Source of the DNA: Escherichia coli
GTDB taxonomy: Bacteria; Pseudomonadota; Gammaproteobacteria; Enterobacterales; Enterobacteriaceae
DNA length: 64,000 nucleotides
NCBI RefSeq assembly: GCF_024223415.1
Contig: NZ_CP100500.1
Direction: 5' to 3' (one strand)
Position numbers and translations under genes: made by a program
Shown here: one piece after another, positions 1-47,318 of the stretch
Numbering within the stretch: the stretch's first letter is position 1
Layout of the letters: the number at the start of each line of letters is the position of its first letter
Notes under the pieces: generated by a model
What the model was told of the DNA's origin: nothing
Databases searched by the model: none
Seen by the model: only the letters and a program-made list of their open reading frames with translations

Positions 1-1
1 T

Positions 2-604: not shown

Positions 605-632
605 CAGAAATAACCACAAGAGGTGATAACCG

Positions 633-1772: not shown

Positions 1773-1774
1773 CC

Positions 1775-2551: not shown

Positions 2552-2569
2552 CGGCTGACCCCGTCAGAA

Positions 2570-2639: not shown

Positions 2640-2654
2640 CTGAAGGAGCGATTT

Positions 2655-5172: not shown

Positions 5173-5187
5173 CACGCGGAGAATGTT

Positions 5188-6769: not shown

Positions 6770-6772
6770 ATC

Positions 6773-8225: not shown

Positions 8226-8228
8226 ACC

Positions 8229-11074: not shown

Positions 11075-11117
11075 GCGGGGAAAAGGAACGGGCATTCATA
11101 AATAATTCATCATGCAG

Positions 11118-11137
11118 GTGCCGCAAGAATGCGGCAC
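11118..11137. terminator. hairpin between the convergent gpG and gpU genes
   Basis: GTGCCGCA-agaa-TGCGGCAC, a perfect 8-bp stem, lies between two convergent stop codons (11074 and 11145). There is no strong T-run. Confidence 0.45.
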
Positions 11138-11144
11138 ATTACCT

Positions 11145-11633: not shown

Positions 11634-11644
11634 GCGAGGTACTC

Positions 11645-15469: not shown

Positions 15470-15519
15470 GCATAAAACCTCAAATCAGGGGGCGACGCCG
15501 CGCGCCGCCGTGGGAAACA

Positions 15520-17321: not shown

Positions 17322-17394
17322 ATGTTTCACCCTTGTCTGGCTGGTTGATTTTGCGTAATCATTACCCACACACGCGGTAATCTCACCCCTTTGA

Positions 17395-17418
17395 TGTTGT
17401 CTCCTGACAGCGACAACA
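17395..17418. promoter_or_regulatory. Ogr/Delta-type late-promoter activator site (TGT-N12-ACA dyad)
   Basis: TGTTGTC-tcctgacagc-GACAACA. The inner TGT (17398-17400) and ACA (17413-17415) are exactly 12 bp apart. It lies in the divergent FI/D intergenic region, about 55 bp upstream of a plausible FI transcription start. Confidence 0.55.
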
Positions 17419-17482
17419 AAACAGCCATTCAACGCCGCTGCGGTGCATGAAACCATTACAGAACGCACCAGGAGAGAACACC

Positions 17483-18574
17483 ATGAAAGAGCTGTCAGTT
17501 ACCGTTCCGTCACCGGATATCGACATCACCATCAACAACAACACACTGGCAAACCTCACAGAGCGACTCATGACGCTGACCCTGACGGATAACCGGGCCT
17601 TTGAGGCAGACCGCGTCACCCTCACCCTTGACGATACGGACGGGCAGTTACAGTTGCCACCACGTGGCGCACGCCTGAGAGTGATGATTGGCTGGCGAGG
17701 AGAATCACTGGTTAACAAGGGCACCTACGTCGTTGATGAGGTTGCGTGGGAAGGACCTCCAGATAAACTGATCATCACCGCCAGCAGCGCAGATTTTCGG
17801 GAAGAGTTCAACGTGAGGCGGGAGGTATCCTGGCACGACGTGACCGTAAAACAGGTTGTGTCAGCCATCGCTCACCGCTACGGCCTGAAGACACAGATAA
17901 GCGAAATCCTCATGGATATCGAAATTGACCACGCTGACCAGACCGAAGAGAGCGATATATCCTTCCTGACCCGCATGGCTGAAATGCTGGGTGCGATTGC
18001 CACCGTAAAAAACGGCAGCCTGTTATTCATTCTGCCGGGTGGCGGAACCGGGCCGGACGGAAGAGCCCTGCCTTCGTTCGCCATTACCCGCAGCAGCGGC
18101 GACAGTCACCGCTTTCGCATTGCTGACCGTGATGCGTATACGGGGGTCCGGGCGCACTGGCTCGATCTGAAGTTCGGGCAAAAGAAAAAAGTGAACGTGA
18201 AGCGACGCAGGGAAGCCGGGAAACAGAAACAGGAGAAGAGCAGCAGCCGGGAGGGTGATTACATGGAAGGCGCGGAAGGGAACGTCTACGTTCTGCGCAG
18301 GACTTACCAGAATGAAGAAACCGCACGACGTGCAGCTGCGGCAAAGTGGCAGGAGTTACAGCGGGGAGCAGCGGCATTCTCCATCACTCTGGCACGGGGT
18401 CGTGCCGACCTGTACCCCGAAATGCACGGCAGGGTAACAGGTTTTAAAAGCGAGGTGGACAATCAGGACTGGATTATTGCCAGGGTGGAGCACATCATAG
18501 ATGAAAGCGGCTTCACCACACAACTGGAGCTGGAAGCGAAAATCCCCGAATGGATAGCAGATTCAGGCGGATAA
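17483..18574 (+). CDS. D: late control/tail protein, P2 gpD family
   Basis: GGAGAG SD. LMTLTLTDNRAFEADRVTLTLDDTDGQLQLPPRGA is the hallmark gpD motif. Confidence 0.85.
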   Translation: MKELSVTVPSPDIDITINNNTLANLTERLMTLTLTDNRAFEADRVTLTLDDTDGQLQLPPRGARLRVMIGWRGESLVNKGTYVVDEVAWEGPPDKLIITASSADFREEFNVRREVSWHDVTVKQVVSAIAHRYGLKTQISEILMDIEIDHADQTEESDISFLTRMAEMLGAIATVKNGSLLFILPGGGTGPDGRALPSFAITRSSGDSHRFRIADRDAYTGVRAHWLDLKFGQKKKVNVKRRREAGKQKQEKSSSREGDYMEGAEGNVYVLRRTYQNEETARRAAAAKWQELQRGAAAFSITLARGRADLYPEMHGRVTGFKSEVDNQDWIIARVEHIIDESGFTTQLELEAKIPEWIADSGG

Positions 18575-18617
18575 AATTAAAATGAGCCATCTCCACTCAG
18601 CCAGATAAGGAGAAGCC

Positions 18618-18869
18618 ATGTTCCGTTGTCCCCTATGCGGTGCATCCGCACGTATCCGCACCAGTCGCAATGAAAATGATTCAGGCACAGTTCGCCTGAA
18701 GTACTACCAGTGCAATAACCTCGAATGCGGGATCGGCTTTACCACACTGGAGGGTTTTAACAAATTCACATCAAAACGCGCCCCGTCGCCGCAGGGTACA
18801 GAGCGGATACCGTGGGAAGATTTTCCGGGATCTCACAGGGGGAATACTCAGATTAATCTTGATATTTAA
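18618..18869 (+). CDS. ogr: late gene transcription activator, Ogr/Delta zinc-finger family
   Basis: MFRCPLCGASARIRTSR...YYQCNNLECGIGFTTLE matches P2 Ogr (MFHCPLCQHAAHARTSR...YHQCQNVNCSATFITYE) with the CxxC...CxxxxC arrangement. Confidence 0.9.
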   Translation: MFRCPLCGASARIRTSRNENDSGTVRLKYYQCNNLECGIGFTTLEGFNKFTSKRAPSPQGTERIPWEDFPGSHRGNTQINLDI

Positions 18870-18918
18870 GAACAATAATCAGGTTGAGAGGACATCATAA
18901 GGCAAGTAGATTAACGGC

Positions 18919-19013
18919 AGATACTTTCCCGCAACCACGGGCAAGTATTTAATTATCCATGATGAAATATGACCTAAATTGTTTTTTGCCCGCCGGAAAG
19001 CGGGCATTTTTTT
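18919..19013 (+). ncRNA. predicted sRNA, A-type copy A0 (directly after ogr)
   Basis: Promoter TTGAGA (18884-18889), 17-bp spacer, TAGATT (18907-18912). Internal hairpin CCCG-caacca-CGGG. Terminator GCCCGC-cggaaa-GCGGGC (18988-19005) followed by a T-run. The 5' end is estimated. Confidence 0.45.
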
Positions 19014-19227
19014 ATTCTTTTGTGGTTATGGGGTCATCAGGAACCACGTGCAGATTATATTTTTGTTTTTTTGGCGTTCCTCCGGCAGCAACGAGTTCAT
19101 CAATAAGACACTGACACGCCTGAACATCCCGGGCATGTCTTAGTTTCACCTTTATTGATTTAACCTTATCCTCACCGGAGGAGAAATGCAGTTCAATCTC
19201 AATATCGTTTCTTCGGAACAATCTCAT
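19012..19227 (-). CDS. hypothetical small protein R1 (71 aa), the only intact copy of a triplicated ORF
   Basis: MRLFRRNDIEIELHFSSGEDKVK.... The start with an SD is conserved in the two decayed copies (AGGAGG in copy 2). The stop abuts the bidirectional terminator. No family recognised. Confidence 0.4.
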   Translation of the reverse strand: MRLFRRNDIEIELHFSSGEDKVKSIKVKLRHARDVQACQCLIDELVAAGGTPKKQKYNLHVVPDDPITTKE

Positions 19228-19321
19228 ACGCCCCCTGAATATATCAGAAATACTAGTATCGAAAAATGAGAAAACAGTTAGACAGGAGAAACATATTAAC
19301 ACAAATCATTTATACCTATAG

Positions 19322-19339
19322 ATGAAATTATAATTTCAT
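19322..19339. promoter_or_regulatory. perfect 18-bp palindrome ATGAAATTATAATTTCAT between divergent R1 and B1
   Basis: Read directly from the sequence. Degenerate versions sit at the same place in unit 2 (~20497) and unit 3 (~21143). Confidence 0.4.
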
Positions 19340-19371
19340 TCATGAATATGATAGATAACTATATTGTGAAC

Positions 19372-19478
19372 AAAATGAAAAATGGCTAAATTAAAAATGG
19401 GCATGGAGGAATGCCCGGTTATCAATATAATGTGACGTAGATCATTGTTTTGCCCGCCGGAGAGCGGGCATTTTTTTT
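19372..19478 (+). ncRNA. predicted sRNA, B-type copy B1
   Basis: -10 TATATT at 19360-19365. Hairpin GGGCAT-ggagga-ATGCCC. Terminator hairpin 19452-19469 followed by T8. Ends are estimated. Confidence 0.35.
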
Positions 19479-19582
19479 GCGCCTGCCATCGAGGCGCCTT
19501 CCCTGGCGCACACAAAGCAGCCCTGATTTTCCATGAAAACTTCAGGGTTGAGCTGCGGGCACAAAGTGAGTAGATTAGCTAC

Positions 19583-19679
19583 GGGTACCTCCCCCTGACA
19601 ACAGGAAGGGTGTCCATTATCCATGATATACAAACGAAAAGTCTTGTTTTTTGCCCGCCGAAGCGCGGGCATTTTTTTA
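19583..19679 (+). ncRNA. predicted sRNA, A-type copy A1 (immediately upstream of hok locus 1)
   Basis: TTGAGC (19548-19553), 17-bp spacer, TAGATT (19571-19576). 5' hairpin around CCUGACAACAGG. Terminator 19653-19670 followed by T7. Confidence 0.45.
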
Positions 19680-19723
19680 TGCATCAGACAAGATACAGCC
19701 CACCCCAACTGACACCTGAAATA

Positions 19724-19752
19724 TTGCCGCAACAAAAAGAAACAGTTAAATT
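19724..19752 (+). promoter_or_regulatory. candidate hok/mok mRNA promoter
   Basis: TTGCCG (19724-19729), 16/17-bp spacer, TTAAAT/TAAATT (19746-19752). The predicted start coincides with GGGUGCCUU (19759-19767), which is complementary to a 3' element (20102-20110). Confidence 0.5.
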
Positions 19753-19794
19753 ACGCGCGGGTGCCTTTCGGCTGATGGCCGGAGGGAAAACCTG

Positions 19795-19864
19795 AAGGCC
19801 GGATGTGGAAAGGCCCCGGAAAACATTTCTGTTTAACCGAGGCCCTAACCGCATTACCTTGACA
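19795..19864 (-). ncRNA. sok: candidate Sok-like antisense RNA (ends approximate)
   Basis: Minus-strand promoter TTGCTC (19899-19894), 17-bp spacer, TAACCT (19876-19871), overlapping the hok SD. The transcript would cover the mok start at 19805, as in R1 hok/sok. No terminator could be resolved. Confidence 0.35.
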
Positions 19865-20038
19865 AGTGAAAGGTTAGCGCCTCTCCGGAAAAGGAGCAAG
19901 TGCTATGTCGCAAAAATCGCTTACGGCCATCACGTTCTGCGTGACGGCAATCCTCATCATCTGGATATTGCACGGTTCGCTGTGCGAAATACGGATGAGC
20001 TTCTGGGGAGCGGAGTTTGCGGCGTTCTTACAATGTAA
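19805..20038 (+). CDS. mok: mok-like overlapping reading frame
   Basis: 77-codon ORF with a GAAGG SD. It starts 100 nt upstream of hok and overlaps almost all of it in another frame, which is the hok/mok architecture. Confidence 0.5.
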   Translation: MERPRKTFLFNRGPNRITLTSERLAPLRKRSKCYVAKIAYGHHVLRDGNPHHLDIARFAVRNTDELLGSGVCGVLTM

Positions 20039-20045
20039 GAAGTAA
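19905..20045 (+). CDS. hok: Hok/Gef-family type I toxin (46 aa)
   Basis: AAGGAG SD. MSQKSLTAITFCVTAILIIWILHGSLCEIRMSFWGAEFAAFLQCKK has one TM plus the SLCE...AAF motif of Hok proteins; closest by memory to HokA. Confidence 0.8.
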   Translation: MSQKSLTAITFCVTAILIIWILHGSLCEIRMSFWGAEFAAFLQCKK

Positions 20046-20134
20046 GGAAACCGCGACGGGGGAGCAATCCCCCGTCAATCGGTTGCCAGGGTAAGGTCGA
20101 TAAGGCACCCTATCTCACAGACATGAACAAACAA

Positions 20135-20167
20135 ACCCGCAGCATAAAAACTGCGGGTTTTCTTTTT
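20135..20167 (+). terminator. intrinsic terminator of hok locus 1
   Basis: ACCCGCAG-cataaaaa-CTGCGGGT followed by TTTTCTTTTT. Confidence 0.7.
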
Positions 20168-20298
20168 GGTGTCCTCACCGACTTGAAACAGTGATCAGAC
20201 TATAAGACAAAGCCCGCAATGTTGCGGGCTTACTCTACCTCTCGAAAATGTGGTCACTGCGTGGACATACGCTGATACAAATCCTTTATATCAATAAA

Positions 20299-20397
20299 TT
20301 AAATCTTTGTTTTTTTCATCAACAATGATTTAACCTTATCCTCACCGGAGGAGAAATGCAGTTCAATCTCAATATCGTTTCTGTGGAACAGCCTCAT
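20299..20397 (-). pseudogene. truncated copy R2 of the small ORF (32 codons)
   Basis: MRLFHRNDIEIELHFSSGEDKVKS is identical in pattern to R1; it then diverges and stops. An AGGAGG SD is retained. Confidence 0.4.
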
Positions 20398-20544
20398 AAG
20401 ACAACCTCCTGAATTCATCAGAAACACAGTCAACTGAAAACCAGAAAGCAGACAAACAGTGGACACACATTAATACAAATCATTTATACCTATAGATGAA
20501 ATTGCAGTTTCATCTATAACATGACAGGTAACAATATTGTGAAA

Positions 20545-20651
20545 AAACTCAAAACTCGTTAGATTAAAGACGGACAGAGCAATGCTACTTTATCAATAAC
20601 ATGTAACCTGTACTTCCTTATTTTGCCCGCCGAAGCACGGGCATTTTTTTT
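20545..20651 (+). ncRNA. predicted sRNA, B-type copy B2 (divergent body)
   Basis: -10 AATATT near 20533. Terminator 20625-20642 followed by T8. The body differs from B1/B3. Confidence 0.3.
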
Positions 20652-20755
20652 GCGCCTGCCATCGAGGCGCCTTCCCTGGCGCACACAAAGCAGCCCTGAT
20701 TTTCCATGAAAACTTCAGGGTTGAGCCAAAAGCACAAAGACAGTAGATTAACCAC

Positions 20756-20849
20756 GGGTGCCTTCCACCTGACAACAGGAAGGGTGTCCAGTATCAATGA
20801 CAGACAACTCACATTGCTGTTTTGCCCGCCGGAAAGCGGGCATTTTTTT
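20756..20849 (+). ncRNA. predicted sRNA, A-type copy A2
   Basis: TTGAGC (20721-20726), 17-bp spacer, TAGATT (20744-20749). Hairpin CCTTCC-acctgacaaca-GGAAGG. Terminator 20824-20841 followed by T7. Confidence 0.45.
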
Positions 20850-20981
20850 ATTCTTTTGTGGTTATTGGGTCATCAGGAACAACATGCAGATTATGCTTTG
20901 ATTTTTTTGGTGTTATTACAGCAGCAACGAGTTTATTAATAAGACACTGACATGCCTGAACATCCCTGACATATCATAATA

Positions 20982-21053
20982 TCACTTTATTTTTTTAGCT
21001 TGTCCTTTCTGGAGCAGAAATATCTCAACATCGTTTCTGTGGAACAACCTCAT
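20982..21053 (-). pseudogene. decayed copy R3 of the small ORF (stop after 23 codons, internal deletions)
   Basis: MRLFHRNDVEIFLLQKGQAKKIK*. Flanking DNA is still alignable by eye to the R1 gene. Confidence 0.35.
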
Positions 21054-21192
21054 TTGCCCTTGAATGTATCATAAATATCAGCATCGGAAAACCAACAGCA
21101 ATACAGAAGAAACATGTTAATGCAAATCACTTATACCTATAGATGAAATTACAGTTTTGTTCATAAATATGATAAGTAACTATATTGTGAAT

Positions 21193-21300
21193 AAAATGAA
21201 AACTAGCTAAATTAAACGTGGGCATGGTGGAATGCCTCGTAATCAATAATACATGATCCGTACTTCCTTGTTTTGCCCGCCGGAAAGCGGGCATTTTTTT
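21193..21300 (+). ncRNA. predicted sRNA, B-type copy B3
   Basis: -10 TATATT at 21181-21186. Hairpin GGGCAT-ggtgga-ATGCC. Terminator 21275-21292 followed by T7. Confidence 0.35.
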
Positions 21301-21404
21301 GGCGGTTACCATCGCCTCACCTTCCTGGTTCACATGAAGCAACCCTGATTTTCCATGAAAACTTCAGGGTTGAGACAAAAGCACAAAGACAGTAGATTAA
21401 CCAC

Positions 21405-21497
21405 GGGTACCTTCCACCTGACAACAGGAAGGCTGTCCAGTATCAATGACAGACAACTCACATTGCTGTTTTGCCCGCCGGAAAGCGGGCTTTTTTT
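21405..21497 (+). ncRNA. predicted sRNA, A-type copy A3
   Basis: TTGAGA (21370-21375), 17-bp spacer, TAGATT (21393-21398). Terminator 21473-21490 followed by T7. Confidence 0.45.
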
Positions 21498-21601
21498 GGC
21501 AGTTATCATAGCCGCACCTTCCTGGCACATATGAAGCAACCCTGATTTTCCATGAAAACTTCAGGGTTGAGACAAAAGCACAAAAACAGTAGATTAACCA
21601 C

Positions 21602-21699
21602 GGGTGCCTGCCACCTGACAACAGGAAGGGTGTCCATTATCCATGATATACAAACGAAAAGTCTTGTCTTTTGCCCGCCAAAGCGCGGGCATTTTTTTA
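21602..21699 (+). ncRNA. predicted sRNA, A-type copy A4 (immediately upstream of hok locus 2)
   Basis: TTGAGA (21567-21572), 17-bp spacer, TAGATT (21590-21595). The 3' half is identical in pattern to A1. Terminator 21673-21690 followed by T7. Confidence 0.45.
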
Positions 21700-21909
21700 T
21701 GCATCAGACAAGATACAGCCCACCCCAACTGACACCTGAAATATTGCCGCAACAAAAAGAAACGGGTGCCTTTCGGCTGATGGCCGGAGGGAAAACCTGA
21801 AGGCCGGATGTGGAAAGGCCCCGGAAAACATCTGTGTTTAACCGAGGCCTGACCCTTCCTACCGTGACAAGTGGAAGGTTAGCGCCTCTTTGTAAAAGGA
21901 GCAAGCGCT

Positions 21910-22050
21910 ATACCGCAAAAAACGATTATTGTTGGCATTTTATGCCTGACAATAACCCTGGTCATCTGGATGGTCCACGATTCGTTATGTGAATTCAGCT
22001 TTGATATCTGGGGAGCGCGTTTTGCGGCGTTCTTGCAGTGTAAACCGTAA
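21910..22050 (+). pseudogene. hok: hok-family toxin gene with ATG>ATA start and deleted promoter
   Basis: (I)PQKTIIVGILCLTITLVIWMVHDSLCEFSFDIWGARFAAFLQCKP. The first codon is ATA where locus 1 has ATG. A 16-bp deletion removes the -10 element present in locus 1. Confidence 0.65.
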
Positions 22051-22200
22051 GAAACCGCAGCGGGGGAGAAATTCCCCGCTATCCGGTTGTTGGGGTGGGC
22101 CGATATGGCGCCCTTTCCCTGTAGAGACAAAACAAAAAACCAGATTTGCCCGCCATTGAGAGGGCTTTTTTGTCACCCTCACCAGTGAGGGCATCATCAT

Positions 22201-22422
22201 TCAGAGGCGCGTAAGCCACCCGGCGTTAACATCCTGCCTGTCAACCCTGGCCGCAGAGTCTGAACGGCAGGTACCGGAAGGAGTACCAAAAACATCCCTG
22301 ACAAGTTCCGCCACCTTCCCGATATCATCAGGTGTCACATTCCTCACCTCGGCAGTGATCCGTGGCGTACCATCATCGTTAACAAGAGTGGCTTTAAAGC
22401 TGGTGCGAAGGGAAAACAACAT
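22201..22422 (-). CDS. hypothetical small protein (~73 aa)
   Basis: GGGAGGGG SD upstream of clustered ATGs. No family recognised. Not part of the serS region as I remember K-12. Confidence 0.3.
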   Translation of the reverse strand: MLFSLRTSFKATLVNDDGTPRITAEVRNVTPDDIGKVAELVRDVFGTPSGTCRSDSAARVDRQDVNAGWLTRL

Positions 22423-22626
22423 CAACATCCCCTCCCTTTGGTTCGTTGCACTGACGGCACGACACCATCAGGAAAAAGAAAAGCCCACAACGTCAGTATT
22501 GTGGACTTTTTTCTTCAAAGATGGACATTATCTGGACACATGAAAATAAAATCCATTTATTTTCATATAGTTAAGTACCATGCAAAAGCGCCCGCAGGCG
22601 CTTTTTAGATTCAGAAAAATTAGGTA

Positions 22627-37492: not shown

Positions 37493-37580
37493 GGTGAGGT
37501 GTCCGAGTGGCTGAAGGAGCACGCCTGGAAAGTGTGTATACGGCAACGTATCGGGGGTTCGAATCCCCCCCTCACCGCCA
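37493..37580 (+). tRNA. serW: tRNA-Ser (anticodon GGA), 88 nt with a long variable arm and encoded CCA
   Basis: GGTGAGGTGTCCGAGTGGCTGAAGGAGCACGCCTGGAAAGTGTG...GGTTCGAATCCCCCCCTCACCGCCA. Its position after infA identifies it as serW rather than serX. Confidence 0.97.
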
Positions 37581-38887: not shown

Positions 38888-39376
38888 TTACCAGTCGAAA
38901 GTGGGAAAACCCGGCAGACATTCAGCGCCGGCATCCAGATGAATGAGACTGACGCCATAACGCCGGATGAGAGTGACAACCAGACGACGAAACGTTTTTG
39001 ACAGACCCAGGCGTTTAAGCCGCAGAGCCGGGTACGACCACGCATCAGTACGTAACAGATATCCGCTGCCTGTAAAATGAATCCATTCTGATTCGCCGTT
39101 GTCATTCGTCTGATGCGACAGCGAGTACAGCCAGGCATTGTCCTGCTCCGTGATATGTGCGGTACTGCAGCGTATGCCGGTAAGGGCCGCAAATGGTGGC
39201 ATGCAGTCTGCTGAGGTCCGGTCAGATTCATCAGCAACACGAAGGGAACAGCCATTATCGCAGACCACGTTAATCAGTTCAGCGAGATTAACACCATCGA
39301 CGTCAGCGACAATGCGCCCCATGTTCAGTGCCTGTACGTTAACGCTGTCGGCTTCCAGTGTCAGGGACAGTTTCAT
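38888..39376 (-). CDS. DUF5983-like protein
   Basis: 162 aa; [23 protein letters not shown].... Its start overlaps the cbtA stop (ATGA). Confidence 0.55.
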
Positions 39377-39750
39377 GGTTTCACCTCACAGTGTTTACCC
39401 AGGGTGATGTTGTTCACCATTCTGTAGTGGCTGCGGGTCATCAGGCCGGTCGCCCGGCGGGCCCGGAGAATATCAATGCTGCTGATTAACTGCGATGAAG
39501 CTCCTGCGCTGAATCCCGGCTGGTCGGTACGCACCAGCGCGTATTTTTCCACAAGAAAGTTCACCGCATCACACAGTGAAATACCCGCCTCAATATGCTG
39601 CTCAATCACACGTTCATCGGCGAACGGTGTGTCATTCAGCGTGAGGCCGTAGTGCTGGTCCAGCAGCCGGGTGAGCAGTGTCTGCCAGATTTCAACCGGA
39701 GACGGGCAGCGCGATGTTGCCCGTACGTGTGTGTCGGGGAATGTTTTCAT
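39373..39750 (-). CDS. cbtA: CbtA/YkfI/YpjF-family type IV toxin (cytoskeleton-binding)
   Basis: ...[66 protein letters not shown]... is nearly identical to remembered K-12 CbtA. Start taken at MKTFPD. Confidence 0.85.
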
Positions 39751-39808
39751 CTTAAGTACTCTGTAACAGGTGATGATAAAGAAGTGCTGTCCGGGGTTAT
39801 GCGGTGGT

Positions 39809-40174
39809 TCAGGGTGTTGCCGGTGTCGGATAAATGGCGATATACACGTAACCACAACTGCCGAGGGTGTCGGCATCGCAGGTCAGCCCTTTCGCATACA
39901 GTGTCACGGTATGCTGATGGCGGGGACTGAGTTCACCGCTGGTGAGCATGAGTTCCAGCTGTTTCATCAGCAGCGGAAAGGCCTGGTCCAGGTGGTACGC
40001 ATCTGCGTCGCTGAACCGGCCTCTGATACCGGCGCGGTCTGCAAGGTAATGCAGGCGGTTACCCTCCTGCACCAGACGGGCACCAAAACAGGGTGTCACG
40101 GTGCAGGGCAGTCCCCACTAGGGGCGGTCGCTGTTGTCGTCAGGATGCGTTGTCCCGGTGAGTGTGTCTGACAT
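39809..40174 (-). pseudogene. cbeA: cbeA (yeeU)-family antitoxin interrupted by an in-frame TAG at codon 19
   Basis: Reads MSDTLTGTTHPDDNSDRP*WGLPCTVTPCFGARLVQEGNRLHYLADRAGIRG.... K-12 CbeA has W at the stop position. The TAG corresponds to plus-strand cta at 40118-40120. Confidence 0.8.
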
Positions 40175-40224: not shown

Positions 40225-40869
40225 TCAGCCGGTGCGCAGACCGGCTTCGGTGAAGGTGTATCCGTTGATGAGAAGGGCCTCATCCACGGCGTCGTCTGAG
40301 GTCAGCCAGTCGTACTCGTTTTCCAGTTGACTGTATAACCAGAAGGCAAGGTCCCGCAGGGCGTCACAGACAACGGTTTCCGCGCTGGCTGTCATTGCCT
40401 GTCCGGTCGGACTGTCCCGGGTGACGGTGATATCCATGCTGTACGGATGGCAGTAGTGTCCCCGGTGGCGGATTTCAGCCTGAAGCTGCCGGAAGTTACG
40501 CTTCTGCACCGCCTGCAGGGCATCCGCGATACGATGAAGCTCACGGTCCTGCGGGGCATATTCCCTGATTTTCCGGGGTGCCGCTGGCTGCCAGCGCCAG
40601 CGTCCTTCAAAACAGGCTCCGTCCCCCTGGCTGCAGAATCCGCTGAACCAGATGCACGGCTCTTCCATAAACCTGCCGTTGCTGAGCCGGATAACACGCT
40701 GGCGGAGGGCAATCCCGACAATCTCACAGACCGTCCTGAAGTCCTCATACACGTTTTCATACCAGTTGCTGTCAGCATGATGCTGACGGTACCATTCACG
40801 GGCCTTCTCCCGTGCTGTGGCGGAAAGTTCATCCGGCGTATACACGGTGGTGATGATAATTCTGCTCAT
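40225..40869 (-). CDS. hypothetical protein (214 aa) inserted between the yeeT and cbeA homologues
   Basis: GGAG SD 6 nt before the ATG at 40869. Motifs FSGFCSQGDGACFEG and a C-terminal ENEYDWLTSDDAVDEALLINGYTFTEAG. No family named with confidence. Confidence 0.5.
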   Translation of the reverse strand: MSRIIITTVYTPDELSATAREKAREWYRQHHADSNWYENVYEDFRTVCEIVGIALRQRVIRLSNGRFMEEPCIWFSGFCSQGDGACFEGRWRWQPAAPRKIREYAPQDRELHRIADALQAVQKRNFRQLQAEIRHRGHYCHPYSMDITVTRDSPTGQAMTASAETVVCDALRDLAFWLYSQLENEYDWLTSDDAVDEALLINGYTFTEAGLRTG

Positions 40870-40885
40870 CCGCATCTCCACTGAC

Positions 40886-41107
40886 TCAGTTCAGGGTGAC
40901 GCTCATCAGCCGGACATACGGGCCAAAACTGTCCTTCCGGCGTTCGGCAAACACGGCAAGCACACCGGGGATATCCTGCACTTCACGACCGGTATACGCT
41001 TCAGCACTGCCGTGCCAGCGGTATTTACCGGTACAGAACGGAAAAAGACGGGATGACGGATACTGACGGTGAACGCGCATGGCTTCACCACGGGTGATGA
41101 TTTTCAT
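40886..41107 (-). CDS. yeeT: YeeT-like protein (DUF987)
   Basis: MKIITRGEAMRVHRQYPSSRLFPFCTGKYRWHGSAEAYTGREVQDIPGVLAVFAERRKDSFGPYVRLMSVTLN is nearly identical to K-12 YeeT. Confidence 0.85.
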   Translation of the reverse strand: MKIITRGEAMRVHRQYPSSRLFPFCTGKYRWHGSAEAYTGREVQDIPGVLAVFAERRKDSFGPYVRLMSVTLN

Positions 41108-41196
41108 GAGAACAGTCCTCCTGAATGTGAAAGTGAGAAACAGCTGAGAAAGAGAAACTGAAGTGACAATATGAAGGTGGCTGTGACGGTGACGGA

Positions 41197-41673
41197 TTAA
41201 AGCAGACCGTGTTCCGCAAAGGAGAACACCCGGCTGCCACCGACTATCAGATGGTCCGGTACCCGGATATCCACCAGGGCCAGTGCCTGTACCAGACGTT
41301 CAGTGATAAGGCGGTCTGCCTTACCGGGTGTGACCTCACCGGACGGATGATTGTGCGCCAGCACCACGGCAGCGGCATTGTGGTACAGGGCGCGTTTAAC
41401 CACCTCCCGGGGATGCACTTCCGTGCGGTTGATGGTACCGGTGAAGAGGGTTTCACCGGCAATCAGCTGATTCTGGTTGTTCAGGTACAGCACCCGGAAC
41501 TCTTCCCGCTCCAGTCCCGCCATGTGCAGAATCAGCCATTCCCGTGCCGCATGCGTGGAGGTGAAGGCCACGCCGGGTTCATGAAGATGGCGGTCCAGGG
41601 TTTTCAGGGCCCGCTGAATGAGGCTGCGCTCGCCGGGCGTCATCGCGCCGGGCAGAAAGGAAATCTGTTGCAT
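41197..41673 (-). CDS. yeeS: RadC-like JAB-domain protein (YeeS/YkfG/YfjY family)
   Basis: Metalloprotease motif HNHPSGEVTPGKADRLIT. GAGG SD before MQQISFLPG. Confidence 0.85.
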   Translation of the reverse strand: MQQISFLPGAMTPGERSLIQRALKTLDRHLHEPGVAFTSTHAAREWLILHMAGLEREEFRVLYLNNQNQLIAGETLFTGTINRTEVHPREVVKRALYHNAAAVVLAHNHPSGEVTPGKADRLITERLVQALALVDIRVPDHLIVGGSRVFSFAEHGLL

Positions 41674-41684
41674 AACCTCACCCC

Positions 41685-42158
41685 TCAGTCGATGATGCGC
41701 ATAATGGCGCTGCATTCCGGATGCTGCAGGGCGTAATCCCGCAGCCGGTAATAATGGACCGTCATGGCATAATGCTCCGTACGGCAGGCGTGATGACTGT
41801 AGGCCATCAGGCAGGCGGCAATGCCGGCGGCTTCAGGGCTCATTTCCGCGCGGTTGCCGTTCATGGTGTTAAACAGTGCCCATGTTTCGTCATCATCGTC
41901 ACCCGGTTCGGGAGCCATAAATGCGCCGCCGTTGTTCAGGGTGTACATATTCCAGATACCCCCACTGTAGTCTTCACACAGACGGTCCATCCAGCCGAAG
42001 ATTCGGGGCTCAAGGGTCACCCACTGCGGAATGAGGCCAAAGTGCTGCGGCCAGAAGCTGATGCGCTGTTCGTCAGGCACTGGGCTGGCAACCAGCTGAG
42101 GTGGATTATTCCCGGATGCAGTGGTTGCGGAAACAGAGTCATGCGAAACCGTTTTCAT
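41685..42158 (-). CDS. antirestriction protein (KlcA/ArdB-like; YafX/YfjX family)
   Basis: 157 aa; WPQHFGLIPQWVTLEPRIFGWMDRLCEDYSGGIWNMYTLNNGGAFMAP is the characteristic block of this family. Confidence 0.75.
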   Translation of the reverse strand: MKTVSHDSVSATTASGNNPPQLVASPVPDEQRISFWPQHFGLIPQWVTLEPRIFGWMDRLCEDYSGGIWNMYTLNNGGAFMAPEPGDDDDETWALFNTMNGNRAEMSPEAAGIAACLMAYSHHACRTEHYAMTVHYYRLRDYALQHPECSAIMRIID

Positions 42159-42262
42159 AAGTGAAATCCTTAAGTGAATAAGTGAACAAGTGAATTAAGG
42201 AAATAAGTGAATGAATAAGTGAATAAGAGAGAAAAGACAGGGCACTGACAGCGTCGCGTTAA

Positions 42263-43081
42263 TCAGCGCATGCTCTCCAGCAGCGTTTCTGCCATCACCC
42301 ACAATGCGCGGTTGAGTTTTATATCGGTATCAATGCTGTGAATGGCCCGGGTATGGATACGTTTTCCTTTTGCACTGCGACCGGAAATCCCGCCTTTCAG
42401 CATATTCTCCTGGATGGTCTGATAAGCACTCCACAGGTCCTTACCGTAATCCTCCCGGCGTCGTGGTGTCAGAATGTCGGCGGTGGTGACGGGCTGATGT
42501 TCGTCACCATAACGGTAAGTCAGTGCCGCCTGTGCCAGCGCCTGGCGTGCCGGTGGCGGCAGGACCAGCGACTGCATGGCATCACGCTTCTCCTCTATCC
42601 GGTCAAACACGCCCACCACCTCGTAAGCCCCTTCAATGACTCTGTCCACCACATTTCCCCGGTGCGGAACACGCACTTCCCCCAGAGACTGACCGCAGAC
42701 GCATCCGTTCTGGCAGACGAACCTGAAGTAACCCGGCAGCATCTGGTAGCTGGAGGTACCGTCATGAGAGTTGAGCAGAATAATTTCAGGGACATGTTGT
42801 CCGTTTATCTCCCCGTCACGGCGCAGACGCAGCATGTGTTTGGTATACCCCCGGCGGCCCGGGTCCCGCACGCGGGTCTGGCAGGCAAAGAAGGGCTGAA
42901 AGCCTTCCCGCTGCAGGCTTTCCAGCACGGTAATGGTGGGGATGTATGTATAGTTCCGGCTCCGGGAGGTGTGCTTATCTTCCCCGAAAATCCCGGGCAC
43001 ATGGTGCATCAGTTCTTCATGTGTCAGCGGACGGTCACGGCGTATCTGGTTCGCATAACCAAAACGACTGGCTAATCGCAT
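42263..43081 (-). CDS. DUF932 protein (YfjQ/YafZ family)
   Basis: 272 aa; MRLASRFG...PLTHEELMHHVPGIFGEDKHTSRS.NYTYIPT pattern; island context. Confidence 0.75.
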   Translation of the reverse strand: MRLASRFGYANQIRRDRPLTHEELMHHVPGIFGEDKHTSRSRNYTYIPTITVLESLQREGFQPFFACQTRVRDPGRRGYTKHMLRLRRDGEINGQHVPEIILLNSHDGTSSYQMLPGYFRFVCQNGCVCGQSLGEVRVPHRGNVVDRVIEGAYEVVGVFDRIEEKRDAMQSLVLPPPARQALAQAALTYRYGDEHQPVTTADILTPRRREDYGKDLWSAYQTIQENMLKGGISGRSAKGKRIHTRAIHSIDTDIKLNRALWVMAETLLESMR

Positions 43082-44159: not shown

Positions 44160-47100
44160 TCAGAAAGTCACATTCAGCGTGGCCTGACCGTTATAACCTT
44201 CAGCGCTGCTGCCGCTGACGCTGCGGGCATAACCGGCCTGAACACCCAGGGTGATATTTTCCCGGACACGGGCTTCCAGTCCGGCCTGCAGGTCCAGTGA
44301 TGTGCCATTCTGTGACGGTGAGAACATCATGTTACTGCCGGCTGCGGCTGTACCCATGCTCATGTCTCCCCGGGAGCTGAAGGTGCGGATAACAGAAGGC
44401 TGTACCCACCCGTTCACCGGCAGTTCACTCACACTGTGTCTGGCACTGCCGCGCAGGGTGTCACGGGATGAGCTGCCTTCACCAAAGCTCATATCGTTGT
44501 GGCTGCCCAGACGGAAACCGGCACGCACATGTTGTGCACTGCCATGCCCGAACTTCACATAACCGGCGTTATCCTGGCCGTCATCCAGGGAGAGTCCCTG
44601 CCAGGTGTACTGCAGTTGTGGCTCCAGCATCAGATGGTCAGTGATACTGAAGGGCAGACCGGTTTCCAGTGAGCCCAGCCAGCCCCGGCCCCGGGCGCGG
44701 AAGTCGTTACTGTCCGATGACGCTTTCATGCTGTGGCGGGTTTCCTGTGCCACAAGGTCAGCCCACAGGCCGGAGGACGTGTGTACCAGATTCAGGTATC
44801 CGCCCAGGCTGCCGGCATCATCCCGGACCGTGCCGGCGCGGGAGCCGTTATCATCCCTGACATCAACGGCAGAATGACCCGCAGCACCATATACCCCTGC
44901 GGTCACAGACATACCGGCAACCTCTGTTCTCAGCAGGTCCCCCTCCAGACGGACGAAGCCATAGCTGCCGCTGCTTTCCGGCGTGGCCCCACGGACAATA
45001 CCGCCGTTGTTACCGTGACCGAGATGACCGCCCTGAATGCTGAGGCGGACGCTGTTATTTTCACCGTTCACATCGCTCTGATGGCTGCGGGAGCCTGCCA
45101 GAATCCGGTCGTAGTCCATCCCCTGCGTCAGCATGGAGGCGTACAGGGGGACTTCCGCGCGATAACGCGTTTCACTGCGCAGATACCAGCTCTGGTCACC
45201 GTCACGGGTCAGGGTGTAGTCATACACCCCGGCCTGCAGCGGGTTGCCCTGAACAAAAGCGCCTTCCTCCGTGGTGGCACCATTAATGGCCTCCACCACC
45301 TGAATGCCCTTACCGGTGGTCGCCAGCCCCGACGCACTGTTGCCGGCGTTCACCAGGTTCAGGGTGGTTTTCCCGGTGGCACTGCCACCGTCAATCACCA
45401 GCCTGTCGGCATTGTGCTGTGCCAGGTCAGGGCGGACACGCAGGGTGATGCTGCCGTTCTGTCCCCGGAGATTTTTCACCGTCAGGGTGGCCGGCGTGAA
45501 GGCTCCGCTGCGGGTGCTGACGAAGTTAATCTTCCCGGCATGACGGAGTTCATCCACCACCGATTTCACCGTGGCGTTGTCCGGAATGTTCCAGGTGGCA
45601 CCGGAGGTGAGGGTGACATCCGTGGGGTCAATGGCACCGGTCAGCACGGTGCTGCCGGTCAGGCTCAGGGTGGTACCGCGCCGGGCAATGATATCCGTGG
45701 TGACGGTACTGTCGGCCAGCGTCAGTGCGCCTTCGTTAAGGCTGACGGCGTTCCGGGTGAGAGTGGTGTTGCTGACAGTGAGTGTGCCGCTTCCTGATTT
45801 TTCCACCCTGCCGTTACCGGTGAGTACGCCCCCCTGCAGAAGCGCATCGCCTTCACGGGTGACCAGGGTGCCGTCATTCACCGTCTTCCCGGAGAGGGTC
45901 AGCGTGGCACCGTTATTCAGCGTGGTGGTGCCGGTCAGGGTTCCGCCCTGCGCGGTGAGCTGCCCGCCGTTCACGGTGGTGTCACGGGCGCTGTCGCCGG
46001 CCTTCAGGGTAAAGGCGCTTCCCTTGCCCAGCGCGAGTCCTGAGGCGTGTCCGCTGCCGATACTGAAGGCACCGCCACCGTCATACTGACCGCTGACAGT
46101 GGCACCGGAATCGGCCAGCAGCATACCGCCTCTGCCCATGGATACCGTGGTGGCTGTACCACCGGTCAGGACTGCCAGCGTGCCCCCGTCATCCACCCGG
46201 GTGTCAGTGGCCGTGTGACCGTTCAGTACATCAAGACGACCGCCTGACTCCAGCAGCACGCCGTCAGCCTTTCCGTCTGCCACGGAAAAGTGGCCCGCAC
46301 GGTTTGTGCCGGAGACGGTGGCTGCCGTACCGGTAACCAGCGCACCGCCCGTATTCTGGGTGACGGCGGTGGCCTTACCACCGGCATTCACCTGCAGCTT
46401 TCCTTTCTGATTGATGGTGGTATTCTCAGCCACCGCTCCCGTCTTCACCACCTGCCAGCCACCGTCGTTAATCACCGTGTTCTGTGCCACACCGCCCTGA
46501 TGAACATACTGGTTGCCGCCGTTAAGGGTGGTGGACAGAGCGTGACCATGTACCGACTGGTCGCCACCGGCCTGTATGGTGGTTTCTCCTGCCATACCTT
46601 CGCCCGCAATGACCTGCCGCCCGTTTCTGTTCACGGTGGTGGAGAGTGCCATCCCTGCCACGAGCTGACCGGTGGCATCGTTATCAGAGTCCGGCCCGCC
46701 TTCAGCGCCGGTATTCACAACGGTGTCGGTTGCCACTGCGCCGGGTTTAACGGTCTGATAACCGTCGCGGTTAATGACAGTACCGACAGCCCTGCCTCCC
46801 TGATGTACCCACTGCTCACCACCGTTCAGGGTGGTGTTCACCGACTGCCCCCGGAGGCTCTGCCCCCCGCCGGCATGGATAACGGTGTCAGTGGCTGTAC
46901 CGCCCGTCATCACAACCTGACGACCATTTGCGGTGACCGTGGTGTTGCTGGCTGTCCCGCCATTATCTATCCACTGCCCACCGTTGTTTTCCTCACTGTC
47001 CGGCCCCAGCTCCAGCCCGGTACTAATGGTCATGCCACTGGCCGTACCGAAGACAATCTGGTTGTCGTGATTTGTCAGCGTACCGCCATTCACTGTATCT

Positions 47101-47279
47101 CCTGCCTGTACAGCGCTGTCAGCAGCCGGCGCGGGCGCTGACATGACTGCAGCAAGGGACAGTGCGGCAGCCACGCCCGCACGCTTCCCCCGCGTGCGGG
47201 CCAGTTCAGAGGCCACCGCGAAGGTGCCCGTGACGTGATTCCATACCAGCCGGTAACTGGTGTTCAGATGTCGCTTCAT
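44160..47279 (-). CDS. flu: antigen 43 self-associating autotransporter adhesin
   Basis: 1039 aa, colinear throughout with remembered K-12 Flu (MKRHLNT.YRLVWNH...ASELAR.RGKR... to ...GYNGQATLNVTF). Confidence 0.95.
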   Translation of the reverse strand: MKRHLNTSYRLVWNHVTGTFAVASELARTRGKRAGVAAALSLAAVMSAPAPAADSAVQAGDTVNGGTLTNHDNQIVFGTASGMTISTGLELGPDSEENNGGQWIDNGGTASNTTVTANGRQVVMTGGTATDTVIHAGGGQSLRGQSVNTTLNGGEQWVHQGGRAVGTVINRDGYQTVKPGAVATDTVVNTGAEGGPDSDNDATGQLVAGMALSTTVNRNGRQVIAGEGMAGETTIQAGGDQSVHGHALSTTLNGGNQYVHQGGVAQNTVINDGGWQVVKTGAVAENTTINQKGKLQVNAGGKATAVTQNTGGALVTGTAATVSGTNRAGHFSVADGKADGVLLESGGRLDVLNGHTATDTRVDDGGTLAVLTGGTATTVSMGRGGMLLADSGATVSGQYDGGGAFSIGSGHASGLALGKGSAFTLKAGDSARDTTVNGGQLTAQGGTLTGTTTLNNGATLTLSGKTVNDGTLVTREGDALLQGGVLTGNGRVEKSGSGTLTVSNTTLTRNAVSLNEGALTLADSTVTTDIIARRGTTLSLTGSTVLTGAIDPTDVTLTSGATWNIPDNATVKSVVDELRHAGKINFVSTRSGAFTPATLTVKNLRGQNGSITLRVRPDLAQHNADRLVIDGGSATGKTTLNLVNAGNSASGLATTGKGIQVVEAINGATTEEGAFVQGNPLQAGVYDYTLTRDGDQSWYLRSETRYRAEVPLYASMLTQGMDYDRILAGSRSHQSDVNGENNSVRLSIQGGHLGHGNNGGIVRGATPESSGSYGFVRLEGDLLRTEVAGMSVTAGVYGAAGHSAVDVRDDNGSRAGTVRDDAGSLGGYLNLVHTSSGLWADLVAQETRHSMKASSDSNDFRARGRGWLGSLETGLPFSITDHLMLEPQLQYTWQGLSLDDGQDNAGYVKFGHGSAQHVRAGFRLGSHNDMSFGEGSSSRDTLRGSARHSVSELPVNGWVQPSVIRTFSSRGDMSMGTAAAGSNMMFSPSQNGTSLDLQAGLEARVRENITLGVQAGYARSVSGSSAEGYNGQATLNVTF

Positions 47280-47281
47280 TA
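47274..47281. repeat. target-site duplication CTTCATTA (flu side)
   Basis: Identical 8-mer at 49724-49731. It contains the flu start codon (the reverse complement of cat at 47277-47279). Confidence 0.9.
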
Positions 47282-47318
47282 GTAAGCGTACAGCGAGAGC
47301 CGTATTGACGGGGATGTG

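What the first reader, a model, noticed from the sequence alone, without database searches (positions are those of the whole stretch)
39373..40174. Intact cbtA-family toxin paired with a cbeA antitoxin gene carrying an amber codon
Read from its ATG (40174), the antitoxin gene gives MSDTLTGTTHPDDNSDRP-TAG-WGLPCTVTPCFGARLVQ.... K-12 CbeA has DRPWWGLPCTV at this point, so a TGG has become TAG at codon 19 (plus strand cta, 40118-40120). Everything downstream remains in frame and conserved, and a GTG at 40099 could reinitiate a 96-aa product. The toxin (39373-39750) is intact. Possible explanations are that the truncated protein suffices, that paralogous antitoxins elsewhere cover the toxin, that the toxin is silent, or that suppression or read-through is used.
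Basis: partly seen in the sequence, partly recalled or inferred. Interest (0 to 1): 0.55.

Follow-up and report, generated by a model that had tools for sequence, protein, structure and literature searches.

The report
Amber-broken antitoxin beside intact toxin
One copy of a well-known E. coli toxin-antitoxin pair has a stop codon early in its antitoxin gene, caused by a single base change at a known mutation-prone methylation site; the same kind of break is common in other E. coli strains and is known to be harmless, so this is ordinary gene decay.

Summary
On the minus strand, a YeeU/CbeA-family antitoxin gene (40174-39809) has TAG at codon 19 (40120-40118), is otherwise in frame, and is followed by an intact 125-aa CbtA-family toxin (39750-39373). 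The window is E. coli, and the module lies in a CP4-44-like island at the tRNA-Ser(GGA) gene next to infA. The nearest alleles in 5,426 complete E. coli genomes carry TGG. They differ from the window by only 4 bases across 4.8 kb, so the change is recent, or possibly a base-calling error. The mutated base is the inner cytosine of a Dcm site (plus strand CCAGG to CTAGG, 40118-40122), a known C-to-T hotspot. The same W19 amber occurs in other paralogues in 44 complete genomes and 5 metagenome contigs, on at least 6 haplotypes. Other nonsense alleles are also present (W20 25 genomes, Q64 22, Q87 7, W20-TGA 4), often beside an intact toxin. RefSeq annotates the W19/W20 amber alleles as a 101-aa CDS starting at CTG. 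Published K-12 work shows that paralogous antitoxins cross-protect and that deleting all three has no growth cost. My verdict is ordinary, recurrent pseudogenisation, of low interest.

The parts
39809..40174 (-). YeeU/CbeA-family (type IV) antitoxin gene, 121 codons plus stop, interrupted by an amber codon at codon 19
   Evidence: Translation. It is identical to WP_032289760.1 of the closest genomes except at codon 19.
40118..40122 (+). Decayed Dcm site. The plus strand reads CTAGG where the closest relatives have CCAGG. The T at 40119 replaces the inner (methylated) cytosine and creates the minus-strand TAG (40120-40118).
   Evidence: Plus-strand context of the window versus L001. Single-base difference at 40119. 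Of 14 Dcm sites in the 4.8-kb module, this is the only one altered.
39809..40111 (-). Possible restart ORFs: CTG 40111 (100 aa, the start type PGAP uses for equivalent alleles) and GTG 40099 (96 aa). Both lack W20-G21, and the GTG product also lacks L22 to T25.
   Evidence: PGAP CDS of 306 nt starting at CTG in L010-L012 and L014. A GGGGA Shine-Dalgarno-like element (-5.5 kcal/mol) lies 0 nt from the CTG and 12 nt from the GTG. Translation of either ORF has not been shown.
39373..39750 (-). Intact CbtA-family toxin gene, 125 aa, 58 nt downstream of the antitoxin stop codon
   Evidence: PF06755, full-length match. No base difference from the toxin gene annotated WP_000847116.1 in the closest relatives. 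103 of 125 residues identical to K-12-type CbtA. Weak own Shine-Dalgarno, -2.4 kcal/mol.
38888..39376 (-). DUF5983 (YeeW-like) gene whose ATG overlaps the toxin stop codon (ATGA)
   Evidence: Pfam PF25638 plus PF19419. Overlap shown.
40225..40881 (-). 218-aa ORF directly upstream of the antitoxin. It has no Pfam family and carries the second of the two differences from the closest alleles in the 1-kb query (40233, missense).
   Evidence: RefSeq names for it vary: hypothetical protein, 'antitoxin of toxin-antitoxin stability system', DUF8835.
40886..43081 (-). Upstream island genes typical of CP4-44-type elements: DUF987 (YeeT-like), RadC/JAB (YeeS-like), antirestriction protein, DUF932
   Evidence: Pfam matches. 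Same gene order as in the annotated relatives.
37493..37580 (+). tRNA-Ser(GGA) next to infA, the insertion site of the island
   Evidence: ARAGORN and Rfam. Strain SCU-316, with a 99.987% identical core, has clpA right after this tRNA and no island.

Best explanation
This is a copy of the CbtA/CbeA (YeeV/YeeU) type IV toxin-antitoxin module, carried on a CP4-44-like island at tRNA-Ser(GGA). Its antitoxin gene has recently suffered a G:C to A:T transition at the 5-methylcytosine position of a Dcm site (ancestral CCAGG, now CTAGG, plus strand 40118-40122). That change turns Trp19 (TGG) into amber.

The full-length antitoxin is no longer made. At best a weakly initiated 96-100-aa product lacking the conserved W20-G21 motif could arise, so this copy is a null or strongly reduced allele. 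The intact toxin beside it does no harm, for three reasons. (i) At native expression these toxins are not growth-limiting even without any antitoxin. (ii) Antitoxins of this family act on the targets (FtsZ/MreB) rather than on their own toxin, so paralogous copies elsewhere in the genome cross-protect. (iii) The early stop leaves 367 nt untranslated ahead of a toxin gene with a weak ribosome-binding site, which may lower toxin expression through polarity.

Shown: the mutation, its Dcm context, its recency, its recurrence elsewhere, and the coexistence of dead antitoxins with intact toxins in nature. Inferred: that deamination of 5-methylcytosine caused it, that the allele is a null, and the polarity effect.
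For: - Single-base difference from the closest alleles, and only 4 SNPs in 4.8 kb of the module.
- The ancestral site is CCAGG and the changed base is its inner C. Of the 9 transition routes to a stop codon in this gene, only 2 lie at a Dcm 5mC: W19-TAG and Q64-TAG.
- CCWGG is an established G:C to A:T hotspot in E. coli (PMC3527292; PMC13250602).
- In 5,426 complete genomes, W19-TAG occurs in 44 and Q64-TAG in 22, each spread over several identity classes. The non-Dcm controls W20-TAG (25), Q87-TAG (7) and W20-TGA (4) each fall in one class, and W19-TGA and Q36-TAG give 0.
- Five metagenome contigs carry W19-TAG. With the complete genomes this makes at least 6 haplotypes, 8-39 nt apart over 345 nt.
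- Window-specific SNPs 12 nt upstream and 7 nt downstream of the mutated base limit any gene-conversion tract to under 19 nt, so the window's event is independent.
- Intact cbtA sits beside W19-amber alleles and beside a Q64-amber pseudogene.
- W20, G21 and L22 are (nearly) invariant, and no complete family member starts after position 15.
- Amber lineage L006/L011 has F54S, H61P, H86T/N and T98A at conserved positions.
- Cross-neutralisation, and a viable triple antitoxin deletion, are published (PMC5371832).
- The toxin's Shine-Dalgarno is weak, and the last ~130 nt before it are C-rich and G-poor.
Against: - The hotspot evidence is suggestive, not proof. The counts are genomes, not independent events, and a non-Dcm neighbour (W20-TAG) is also frequent.
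- Conversion among K-12-type paralogues could account for part of the multi-haplotype pattern.
- Whether this strain has an active dcm gene cannot be seen in the window.
- The downstream ORF in the window has no further lesion, so a functional restart product is not excluded.
- PGAP annotates equivalent alleles as intact 101-aa proteins.
- No read data are available, so the base call itself cannot be verified.
Confidence: 0.6

Rival explanations
1. The amber is genuine, but translation restarts at CTG 40111 or GTG 40099. The resulting 96-100-aa protein still works as an antitoxin, so the allele is a benign N-terminal truncation.
For: Residues 1-18 are dispensable in family terms. K-12 YfjZ is 105 aa and its residue 5 aligns with residue 19 here, and 107-108-aa members exist. 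Position 19 itself is variable (W/R/T/Q/G). The restart ORF keeps 92 of 100 Pfam profile positions (E 3.6e-50). A GGGGA element lies 12 nt before the GTG, and the stop codon is only 18 nt upstream, which would allow termination-reinitiation. PGAP calls the equivalent 101-aa CDS non-pseudo in 40 or more genomes whose cbtA is intact in the ones examined.
Against: Every restart product lacks W20 and G21, which are (nearly) invariant in 60 diverse members, and no complete natural member begins after position 15. The Shine-Dalgarno spacing is poor for both start codons (0 and 12 nt) and both are non-ATG. One amber lineage has four replacements at conserved positions downstream of the stop, as expected for a dead ORF. 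True nulls (Q64 amber) are tolerated equally well, so tolerance says nothing in favour of function.
Confidence: 0.2
2. The A at 40119 (coding strand) is a base-calling or assembly artefact, and the strain really has TGG. Dcm motifs are the classic site of nanopore consensus errors, and multi-copy islands are where short-read polishing fails.
For: With the default ONT models of 2018-2019, about 70% of consensus errors lay in CCAGG/CCTGG (PMC6591954). DNA modification induces strand-specific nanopore errors (PMC11610603). The change is exactly at the methylated base. This haplotype with TAG is absent from 5,426 complete genomes, and the exact 96-aa product is on record nowhere. The element is repeated, with a median of 3 copies per genome.
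Against: The window is not generally corrupted at Dcm sites. All 44 sites across 15 kb of core are intact, with only 2 non-Dcm mismatches to strain SCU-316, and 13 of 14 in the island module are intact. The same W19 amber exists in SPAdes-named (NODE_...) metagenome contigs and in many complete genomes from different laboratories, so it is a real allele in nature. Three other ordinary SNPs accompany it in the 4.8-kb module.
Confidence: 0.15
3. The full-length antitoxin is still made, by amber suppression or programmed read-through of UAG.
For: Only that the downstream frame is intact and the allele type persists in nature.
Against: The window has no suppressor tRNA; its only tRNA is Ser-GGA. 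The context is UAG-U, which from general knowledge is an efficiently terminated context in E. coli. Wild E. coli are not known to carry amber suppressors. Other stops (TGA at W20, TAG at Q64 and Q87) are also tolerated, so no special mechanism is needed.
Confidence: 0.03

Closest known systems
CbtA/CbeA (YeeV/YeeU) type IV toxin-antitoxin module of cryptic prophage CP4-44, E. coli K-12
   Same: Same two Pfam families (PF06154 antitoxin, PF06755 toxin), same order and strand, and the same neighbours: DUF987/YeeT, RadC/YeeS, DUF5983/YeeW, Ag43-type autotransporter. The antitoxin is about 89% identical at the DNA level, and the toxin shares 103 of 125 residues.
   Different: It sits at tRNA-Ser(GGA) next to infA rather than at the K-12 CP4-44 site. 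An extra 218-aa gene lies between the yeeT-like gene and the antitoxin. The antitoxin ORF is interrupted at codon 19.
RefSeq WP_044863316.1, the 101-aa 'YeeU family antitoxin' annotated in E. coli genomes with W19-TAG or W20-TAG in CP4-44 cbeA
   Same: The same codon-19 TGG to TAG change in the same sequence context (CCCC-TAG-TGGGG). The downstream frame is intact, and cbtA is intact in the W19-amber genomes examined.
   Different: It is a different paralogue (33-39 differences in 345 nt) at a different locus. The window's event is an independent mutation, and this haplotype with TAG is not in the collection.
Amber hotspots at Dcm sites in lacI
   Same: A C to T change at the inner cytosine of CCWGG that creates TAG and recurs independently. 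The general hotspot status of CCWGG is confirmed in PMC3527292 and PMC13250602.
   Different: Here it is seen as standing natural variation in a dispensable gene, not in a selection experiment. The excess over non-Dcm sites is only suggestive.
YfjZ and YafW, the short K-12 paralogues of CbeA
   Same: They are naturally about 105 aa and lack the first ~14 residues of CbeA, yet they are proven antitoxins that cross-neutralise CbtA (PMC5371832).
   Different: They keep 4 residues plus the (T/R)-W-G-L segment. Any restart product here begins after W20-G21.

Membership tests
CbtA/CbeA (YeeV/YeeU) type IV toxin-antitoxin module | Antitoxin gene of family PF06154 (YagB/YeeU/YfjZ) | tested here: met
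PDB 2INW and 2H28 (YeeU) match at E 6.5e-78 and 1.1e-74.
CbtA/CbeA (YeeV/YeeU) type IV toxin-antitoxin module | Toxin gene of family PF06755 immediately downstream on the same strand | tested here: met
   Full-length profile match at E 1.6e-59, with a 58-nt spacer.
CbtA/CbeA (YeeV/YeeU) type IV toxin-antitoxin module | Complete, translatable antitoxin reading frame | tested here: not met
   TAG at codon 19. The closest alleles have TGG.
CbtA/CbeA (YeeV/YeeU) type IV toxin-antitoxin module | Context in a CP4-type island (YeeS/RadC, YeeT/DUF987, YeeW/DUF5983, Ag43) at a tRNA gene | tested here: met
   and the annotated relatives.
CbtA/CbeA (YeeV/YeeU) type IV toxin-antitoxin module | The toxin inhibits FtsZ/MreB, and the antitoxin counteracts it by bundling the targets without binding the toxin | not testable with these tools
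   Known for the K-12 proteins (PMC5624674; PMC5371832). Inferred here from homology only.
Dcm (CCWGG) 5-methylcytosine deamination hotspot mutation | The ancestral sequence at the site is CCWGG | tested here: met
   L001-L004 have CCAGG on the plus strand (CC-TGG on the coding strand).
Dcm (CCWGG) 5-methylcytosine deamination hotspot mutation | The change is C to T at the inner cytosine, on either strand | tested here: met
   Plus strand CCAGG to CTAGG at 40119.
Dcm (CCWGG) 5-methylcytosine deamination hotspot mutation | Recurs independently more often than comparable non-Dcm transitions | tested here: inconclusive
   Both Dcm-site ambers occur in several identity classes (44 and 22 genomes). 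The five non-Dcm controls give 25, 7, 4, 0 and 0 genomes, each non-zero one in a single class. At least two origins of W19-TAG are certain, the window and the K-12 type. The counts are not corrected for phylogeny.
Dcm (CCWGG) 5-methylcytosine deamination hotspot mutation | The host has an active Dcm methylase | not testable with these tools
   The dcm gene lies outside the 64-kb window. I know from general knowledge that most E. coli carry it.

The most novel reading that the evidence does not exclude
The codon-19 amber might be more than neutral decay. It could be a recurrently selected switch in which a methylation-prone site in the antitoxin repeatedly produces alleles that lower or alter antitoxin output while keeping the toxin. 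That would shift the toxin:antitoxin balance and change traits such as early biofilm formation, which rises 2-4-fold when these antitoxins are deleted in K-12 (PMC5371832). This reading would predict that W19-amber lineages keep intact toxins and restart ORFs for longer than neutral decay allows.
Probability: 0.05. Interest if true: 0.45.

Novelty: new member of a known kind. Interest (0 to 1): 0.15.

Why it matters
It matters little on its own. It adds one more decaying copy of a redundant cryptic-prophage toxin-antitoxin module.

Three practical points follow:
1. An intact toxin beside a broken antitoxin is not paradoxical in this family and should not be flagged as such.
2. Annotation is inconsistent. 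PGAP calls W19/W20 amber alleles intact 101-aa proteins with a CTG start, yet calls Q64 amber alleles pseudogenes.
3. Nonsense calls at CCWGG sites in enterobacterial assemblies need read-level confirmation, because the same position is both a true mutational hotspot and a nanopore error hotspot.

Tried and rejected
- Exact look-up of the 96-aa ORF product in public assemblies: nothing on record.
- Pattern scan of one genome per species: 0 hits, so the window's genome is not in that collection.
- My first hypothesis, that the Dcm hotspot alone explains the recurrence, was weakened when the neighbouring non-Dcm control W20-TAG turned up in 25 genomes. I kept it only as the likely mutational cause of this event, with the excess rated inconclusive.
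- AlphaFold2 prediction of a full-length homologue with a 60-sequence alignment gave mean pLDDT 55, with residues 1-51 mostly below 50. I judged it unusable, ran no fold search, and drew no structural conclusion about residues 19-26.
- The YeeU crystal-structure paper (Arbing et al. 2010, PMC8229532) and Brown and Shaw 2003 (PMC262102) are not held.
- Gene conversion from a K-12-type amber allele as the source of the window's TAG: rejected, because the tract would have to be under 19 nt.
- A wholesale nanopore-corrupted assembly: rejected, because 57 of the 58 Dcm sites compared with close relatives are intact. A single residual error is not excluded.
- A suppressor tRNA or a second cbeA/cbtA copy inside the window: none found.
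- My first broad literature search on Dcm amber hotspots returned mostly irrelevant papers.

Full report
**1. The observation**

On the minus strand, the ORF starting at ATG 40174 reads MSDTLTGTTHPDDNSDRP, then TAG (40120-40118). It continues in frame as WGLPCTVTPCFGARLVQEGN... to TGA at 39811-39809. It matches the solved YeeU structures 2INW and 2H28 at E 6.5e-78 and 1.1e-74, and K-12 YeeU reads DRPWWGLPCTV at this point.

Fifty-eight nucleotides downstream lies an open 125-aa ORF (39750-39373) that covers the whole CbtA_toxin profile (PF06755, E 1.6e-59). Its stop codon overlaps the ATG of a DUF5983/YeeW-like gene. A 96-aa GTG ORF (40099) and a 100-aa CTG ORF (40111) exist after the stop.

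**2. Where it sits**

The core flank (lrp, trxB, cydDC, aat, infA) is 99.99-100% identical to several E. coli chromosomes, so the window is E. coli. The module belongs to an island inserted at tRNA-Ser(GGA) 37493-37580 next to infA. Strain SCU-316 has clpA immediately after this tRNA.

The island has the usual CP4-44-type content: DUF4942, DUF5983, toxin, antitoxin, a 218-aa ORF without a Pfam family, DUF987, RadC, an antirestriction protein, DUF932, an Ag43-type autotransporter, IS66 and a GTPase. The window contains no second cbeA or cbtA copy. Its only tRNA is Ser-GGA, so no suppressor is visible.

**3. How recent the change is**

The family is found in 4,925 of 5,426 complete E. coli genomes, with a median of 3 copies per genome. 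The closest alleles (99.8%) sit at the other Ser-GGA tRNA, near ghrA. They encode an intact 121-aa antitoxin (WP_032289760.1) and a toxin with no base difference from the window's.

Within 1001 nt the window differs from them at two bases: 40119 (TGG to TAG) and 40233 (a missense in the upstream ORF). Across 4.8 kb of the module there are only 4 differences. No complete genome has this haplotype with TAG or at this junction, and the exact 96-aa product is on record nowhere. The amber is therefore a very recent point change, or an error in this one sequence.

**4. The mutated base lies in a Dcm site**

The wild-type coding strand is CCC-TGG-TGG, which contains CCTGG. On the plus strand the relatives read CCAGG (40118-40122) and the window reads CTAGG. 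The change is C to T at the inner cytosine, which is the base Dcm methylates. This base is an established G:C to A:T hotspot through deamination of 5-methylcytosine (PMC3527292, PMC13250602). The gene has 37 single-base routes to a stop codon. Nine are transitions, and only two of those lie at a Dcm 5mC: W19 to TAG and Q64 to TAG.

**5. Recurrence elsewhere**

A metagenome scan for TAG at this codon found 5 contigs, each carrying a different paralogue that is 87-91% identical to the window.

For the complete genomes I used 55-nt megablast queries with the variant base at position 28, so that every 28-mer seed must contain it. The query flanks are from the K-12-type haplotype, so the counts cover only alleles that share at least 28 exact bases with it around the site. 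Results were:

| Variant | Site type | Genomes | Identity classes |
|---|---|---|---|
| wild type | n/a | 4,044 (6,713 places) | n/a |
| W19-TAG | Dcm | 44 | several |
| Q64-TAG | Dcm | 22 | several |
| W20-TAG | non-Dcm | 25 | one |
| Q87-TAG | non-Dcm | 7 | one |
| W20-TGA | non-Dcm | 4 | one |
| W19-TGA | non-Dcm | 0 | n/a |
| Q36-TAG | non-Dcm | 0 | n/a |

Together with the metagenome contigs, W19-TAG is found on at least 6 haplotypes that differ by 8-39 nt over 345. The window's own event is certainly independent, because window-specific SNPs 12 nt upstream and 7 nt downstream leave room for a conversion tract of under 19 nt.

Two conclusions follow. First, nonsense alleles of this antitoxin are common, about 1.5% of copies at these seven sites alone. 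Second, the two Dcm-site ambers are the most frequent and the only multi-haplotype ones. That fits a hotspot but does not prove it, because the counts are genomes rather than events and W20-TAG is also frequent.

**6. Why an intact toxin is tolerated**

In the three W19-amber genomes I inspected at the CP4-44 position, cbtA is intact. In genomes with the Q64 amber, which RefSeq flags as 'internal stop' and which leaves no restart option, cbtA is intact in two of the three inspected. So a dead cis antitoxin beside an intact toxin occurs in natural isolates.

Published K-12 work explains this. CbeA, YafW and YfjZ each neutralise all three toxins. Deleting all three antitoxin genes affects neither growth nor viability. 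The loci are transcribed weakly, and the toxins show their effects on overexpression (PMC5371832; PMC5624674). CbeA acts by stabilising FtsZ/MreB assemblies rather than by binding its toxin (PMC5624674), which makes protection in trans natural.

There is one further inference. The early stop leaves 367 nt untranslated ahead of a toxin gene with a weak Shine-Dalgarno (-2.4 kcal/mol), and the last ~130 nt are C-rich and G-poor. Rho-dependent polarity could therefore lower toxin expression at the same time. This was not tested.

**7. Whether a restart product works**

In favour:
- Residues 1-18 are dispensable in the family. YfjZ is 105 aa, and its residue 5 aligns with residue 19 here. Members of 107-108 aa exist.
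- Position 19 is variable (W 73, R 9, T 7, Q 3, G 2).
- PGAP annotates the equivalent alleles as a non-pseudo 101-aa CDS starting at CTG (WP_044863316.1).

Against:
- W20, G21 and L22 are (nearly) invariant in 60 diverse members.
- No complete member begins later than four residues before position 19, whereas every restart product begins after W20-G21.
- The only Shine-Dalgarno-like element (GGGGA, -5.5 kcal/mol) lies 0 nt from the CTG and 12 nt from the GTG.
- One amber lineage (metagenome contig L006 and strain JP538, L011) carries F54S, H61P, H86T/N and T98A at positions conserved in at least 90% of members, residues never seen in those 60 sequences, while its cbtA is still intact. That pattern looks like relaxed constraint.

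A structure prediction meant to show the role of residues 19-26 was of too low confidence to use (mean pLDDT 55). I therefore favour a null or strongly hypomorphic allele, but the restart rival is not excluded.

**8. The artefact rival**

CCAGG/CCTGG motifs accounted for about 70% of nanopore consensus errors with the default models of 2018-2019 (PMC6591954). Repeated islands are also hard to polish with short reads.

I tested for general corruption. The window has 144 CCWGG sites and only three CTAGG/CCTAG sites. All 44 Dcm sites across 15 kb of core are identical to strain SCU-316, which differs from the window there by 2 mismatches, neither at a Dcm site. In the island module, 13 of the 14 Dcm sites are unchanged. 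So the sequence is not a raw nanopore consensus, but a single residual error cannot be excluded without reads. The same amber is real elsewhere, including in SPAdes-named metagenome contigs and in many independently sequenced genomes.

**9. Comparison with what is known, and verdict**

The locus is a member of the CbtA/CbeA type IV toxin-antitoxin family by both domain families, gene order and island context. It fails only the requirement for a complete antitoxin frame. The kind of lesion is already present and annotated in public genomes, and the mutational route is the classical Dcm amber hotspot. This particular haplotype with the amber is new to the collections I searched, but that is a trivial novelty.

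My probabilities are:
- about 0.6 for a genuine Dcm-site mutation giving a tolerated null or hypomorph;
- about 0.2 for a genuine mutation with a functional restart product;
- about 0.15 for a base-calling artefact;
- about 0.03 for suppression or read-through.

Interest is low. A specialist would not be surprised, and no open question becomes testable because of it.

Noticed in passing
window 1-18900: A P2-family prophage occupies the first ~19 kb. It includes the major capsid (633-1772), small terminase, lysozyme, baseplate J, tail fibre (8229-10463), tape measure (11645-14992), tube, sheath, gpD (17447-18574) and an Ogr-like zinc-finger ORF (18618-18869). Strain SCU-316, whose core is otherwise 99.987% identical, has dmsABC upstream of serS instead.
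   Followed up: partly
window 18900-22600: About 3.7 kb between the prophage's ogr gene and serS has no ORF of 150 aa or more. It holds diverged direct repeats instead: 174 nt in 4 copies, 231 nt in 2, 169 nt in 2, and 95 nt in 3 copies each containing a GC hairpin plus T run. The 231-nt pair (19759-19918 and 21764-21921, plus strand) gives full-length but sub-threshold matches to the Rfam sok antitoxin RNA RF01794 (46-48 bits against a gathering score of 59; E about 1e-8). This suggests two hok/sok-like type I toxin-antitoxin loci as prophage cargo.
   Followed up: partly
window 40225-40881 (-): A 218-aa ORF between the DUF987/YeeT-like gene and the antitoxin has no Pfam family. K-12 CP4-44 has no gene at this position. 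RefSeq names for it are inconsistent: hypothetical protein, 'antitoxin of toxin-antitoxin stability system', DUF8835. The window's copy carries a missense at 40233 relative to its closest relatives.
   Followed up: no
window 42270-42860 (-), DUF932 gene: A mosaic segment: 55 differences from the closest relative within about 600 nt, against 4 differences in the adjacent 4.8 kb. This indicates a recombination tract inside the DUF932 gene.
   Followed up: no
loci L010-L012, L014, L015 versus L016-L018 (RefSeq annotation): PGAP treats early amber alleles (W19, W20) of cbeA as intact 101-aa proteins with a CTG start (WP_044863316.1, WP_071792336.1). It marks the Q64 amber allele as a pseudogene with an internal stop. 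The treatment of truncated antitoxins is therefore inconsistent.
   Followed up: yes
window 37493-37580 and loci L001, L002: Nearly the same 5.8-kb module (99% identical) sits at the Ser-GGA tRNA next to infA in the window, but at the Ser-GGA tRNA next to ghrA in the closest relatives. Islands found at the infA site in other genomes are only ~89% identical. The module has evidently moved, or been exchanged, between the two tRNA-Ser(GGA) sites.
   Followed up: partly
window 44160-49950: The island carries an Ag43/AIDA-type autotransporter (44160-47279), an IS66-family transposase (47319-48857) and a match to IS102 RNA (RF00124, 49751-49947, 88 bits).
   Followed up: no
window 55671 and 56263: These are the only other CTAGG/CCTAG pentamers in the 64-kb window, which has 8 CTAG in all against 144 CCWGG sites. 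They could be further decayed Dcm sites in island cargo genes. I did not compare them with relatives.
   Followed up: no
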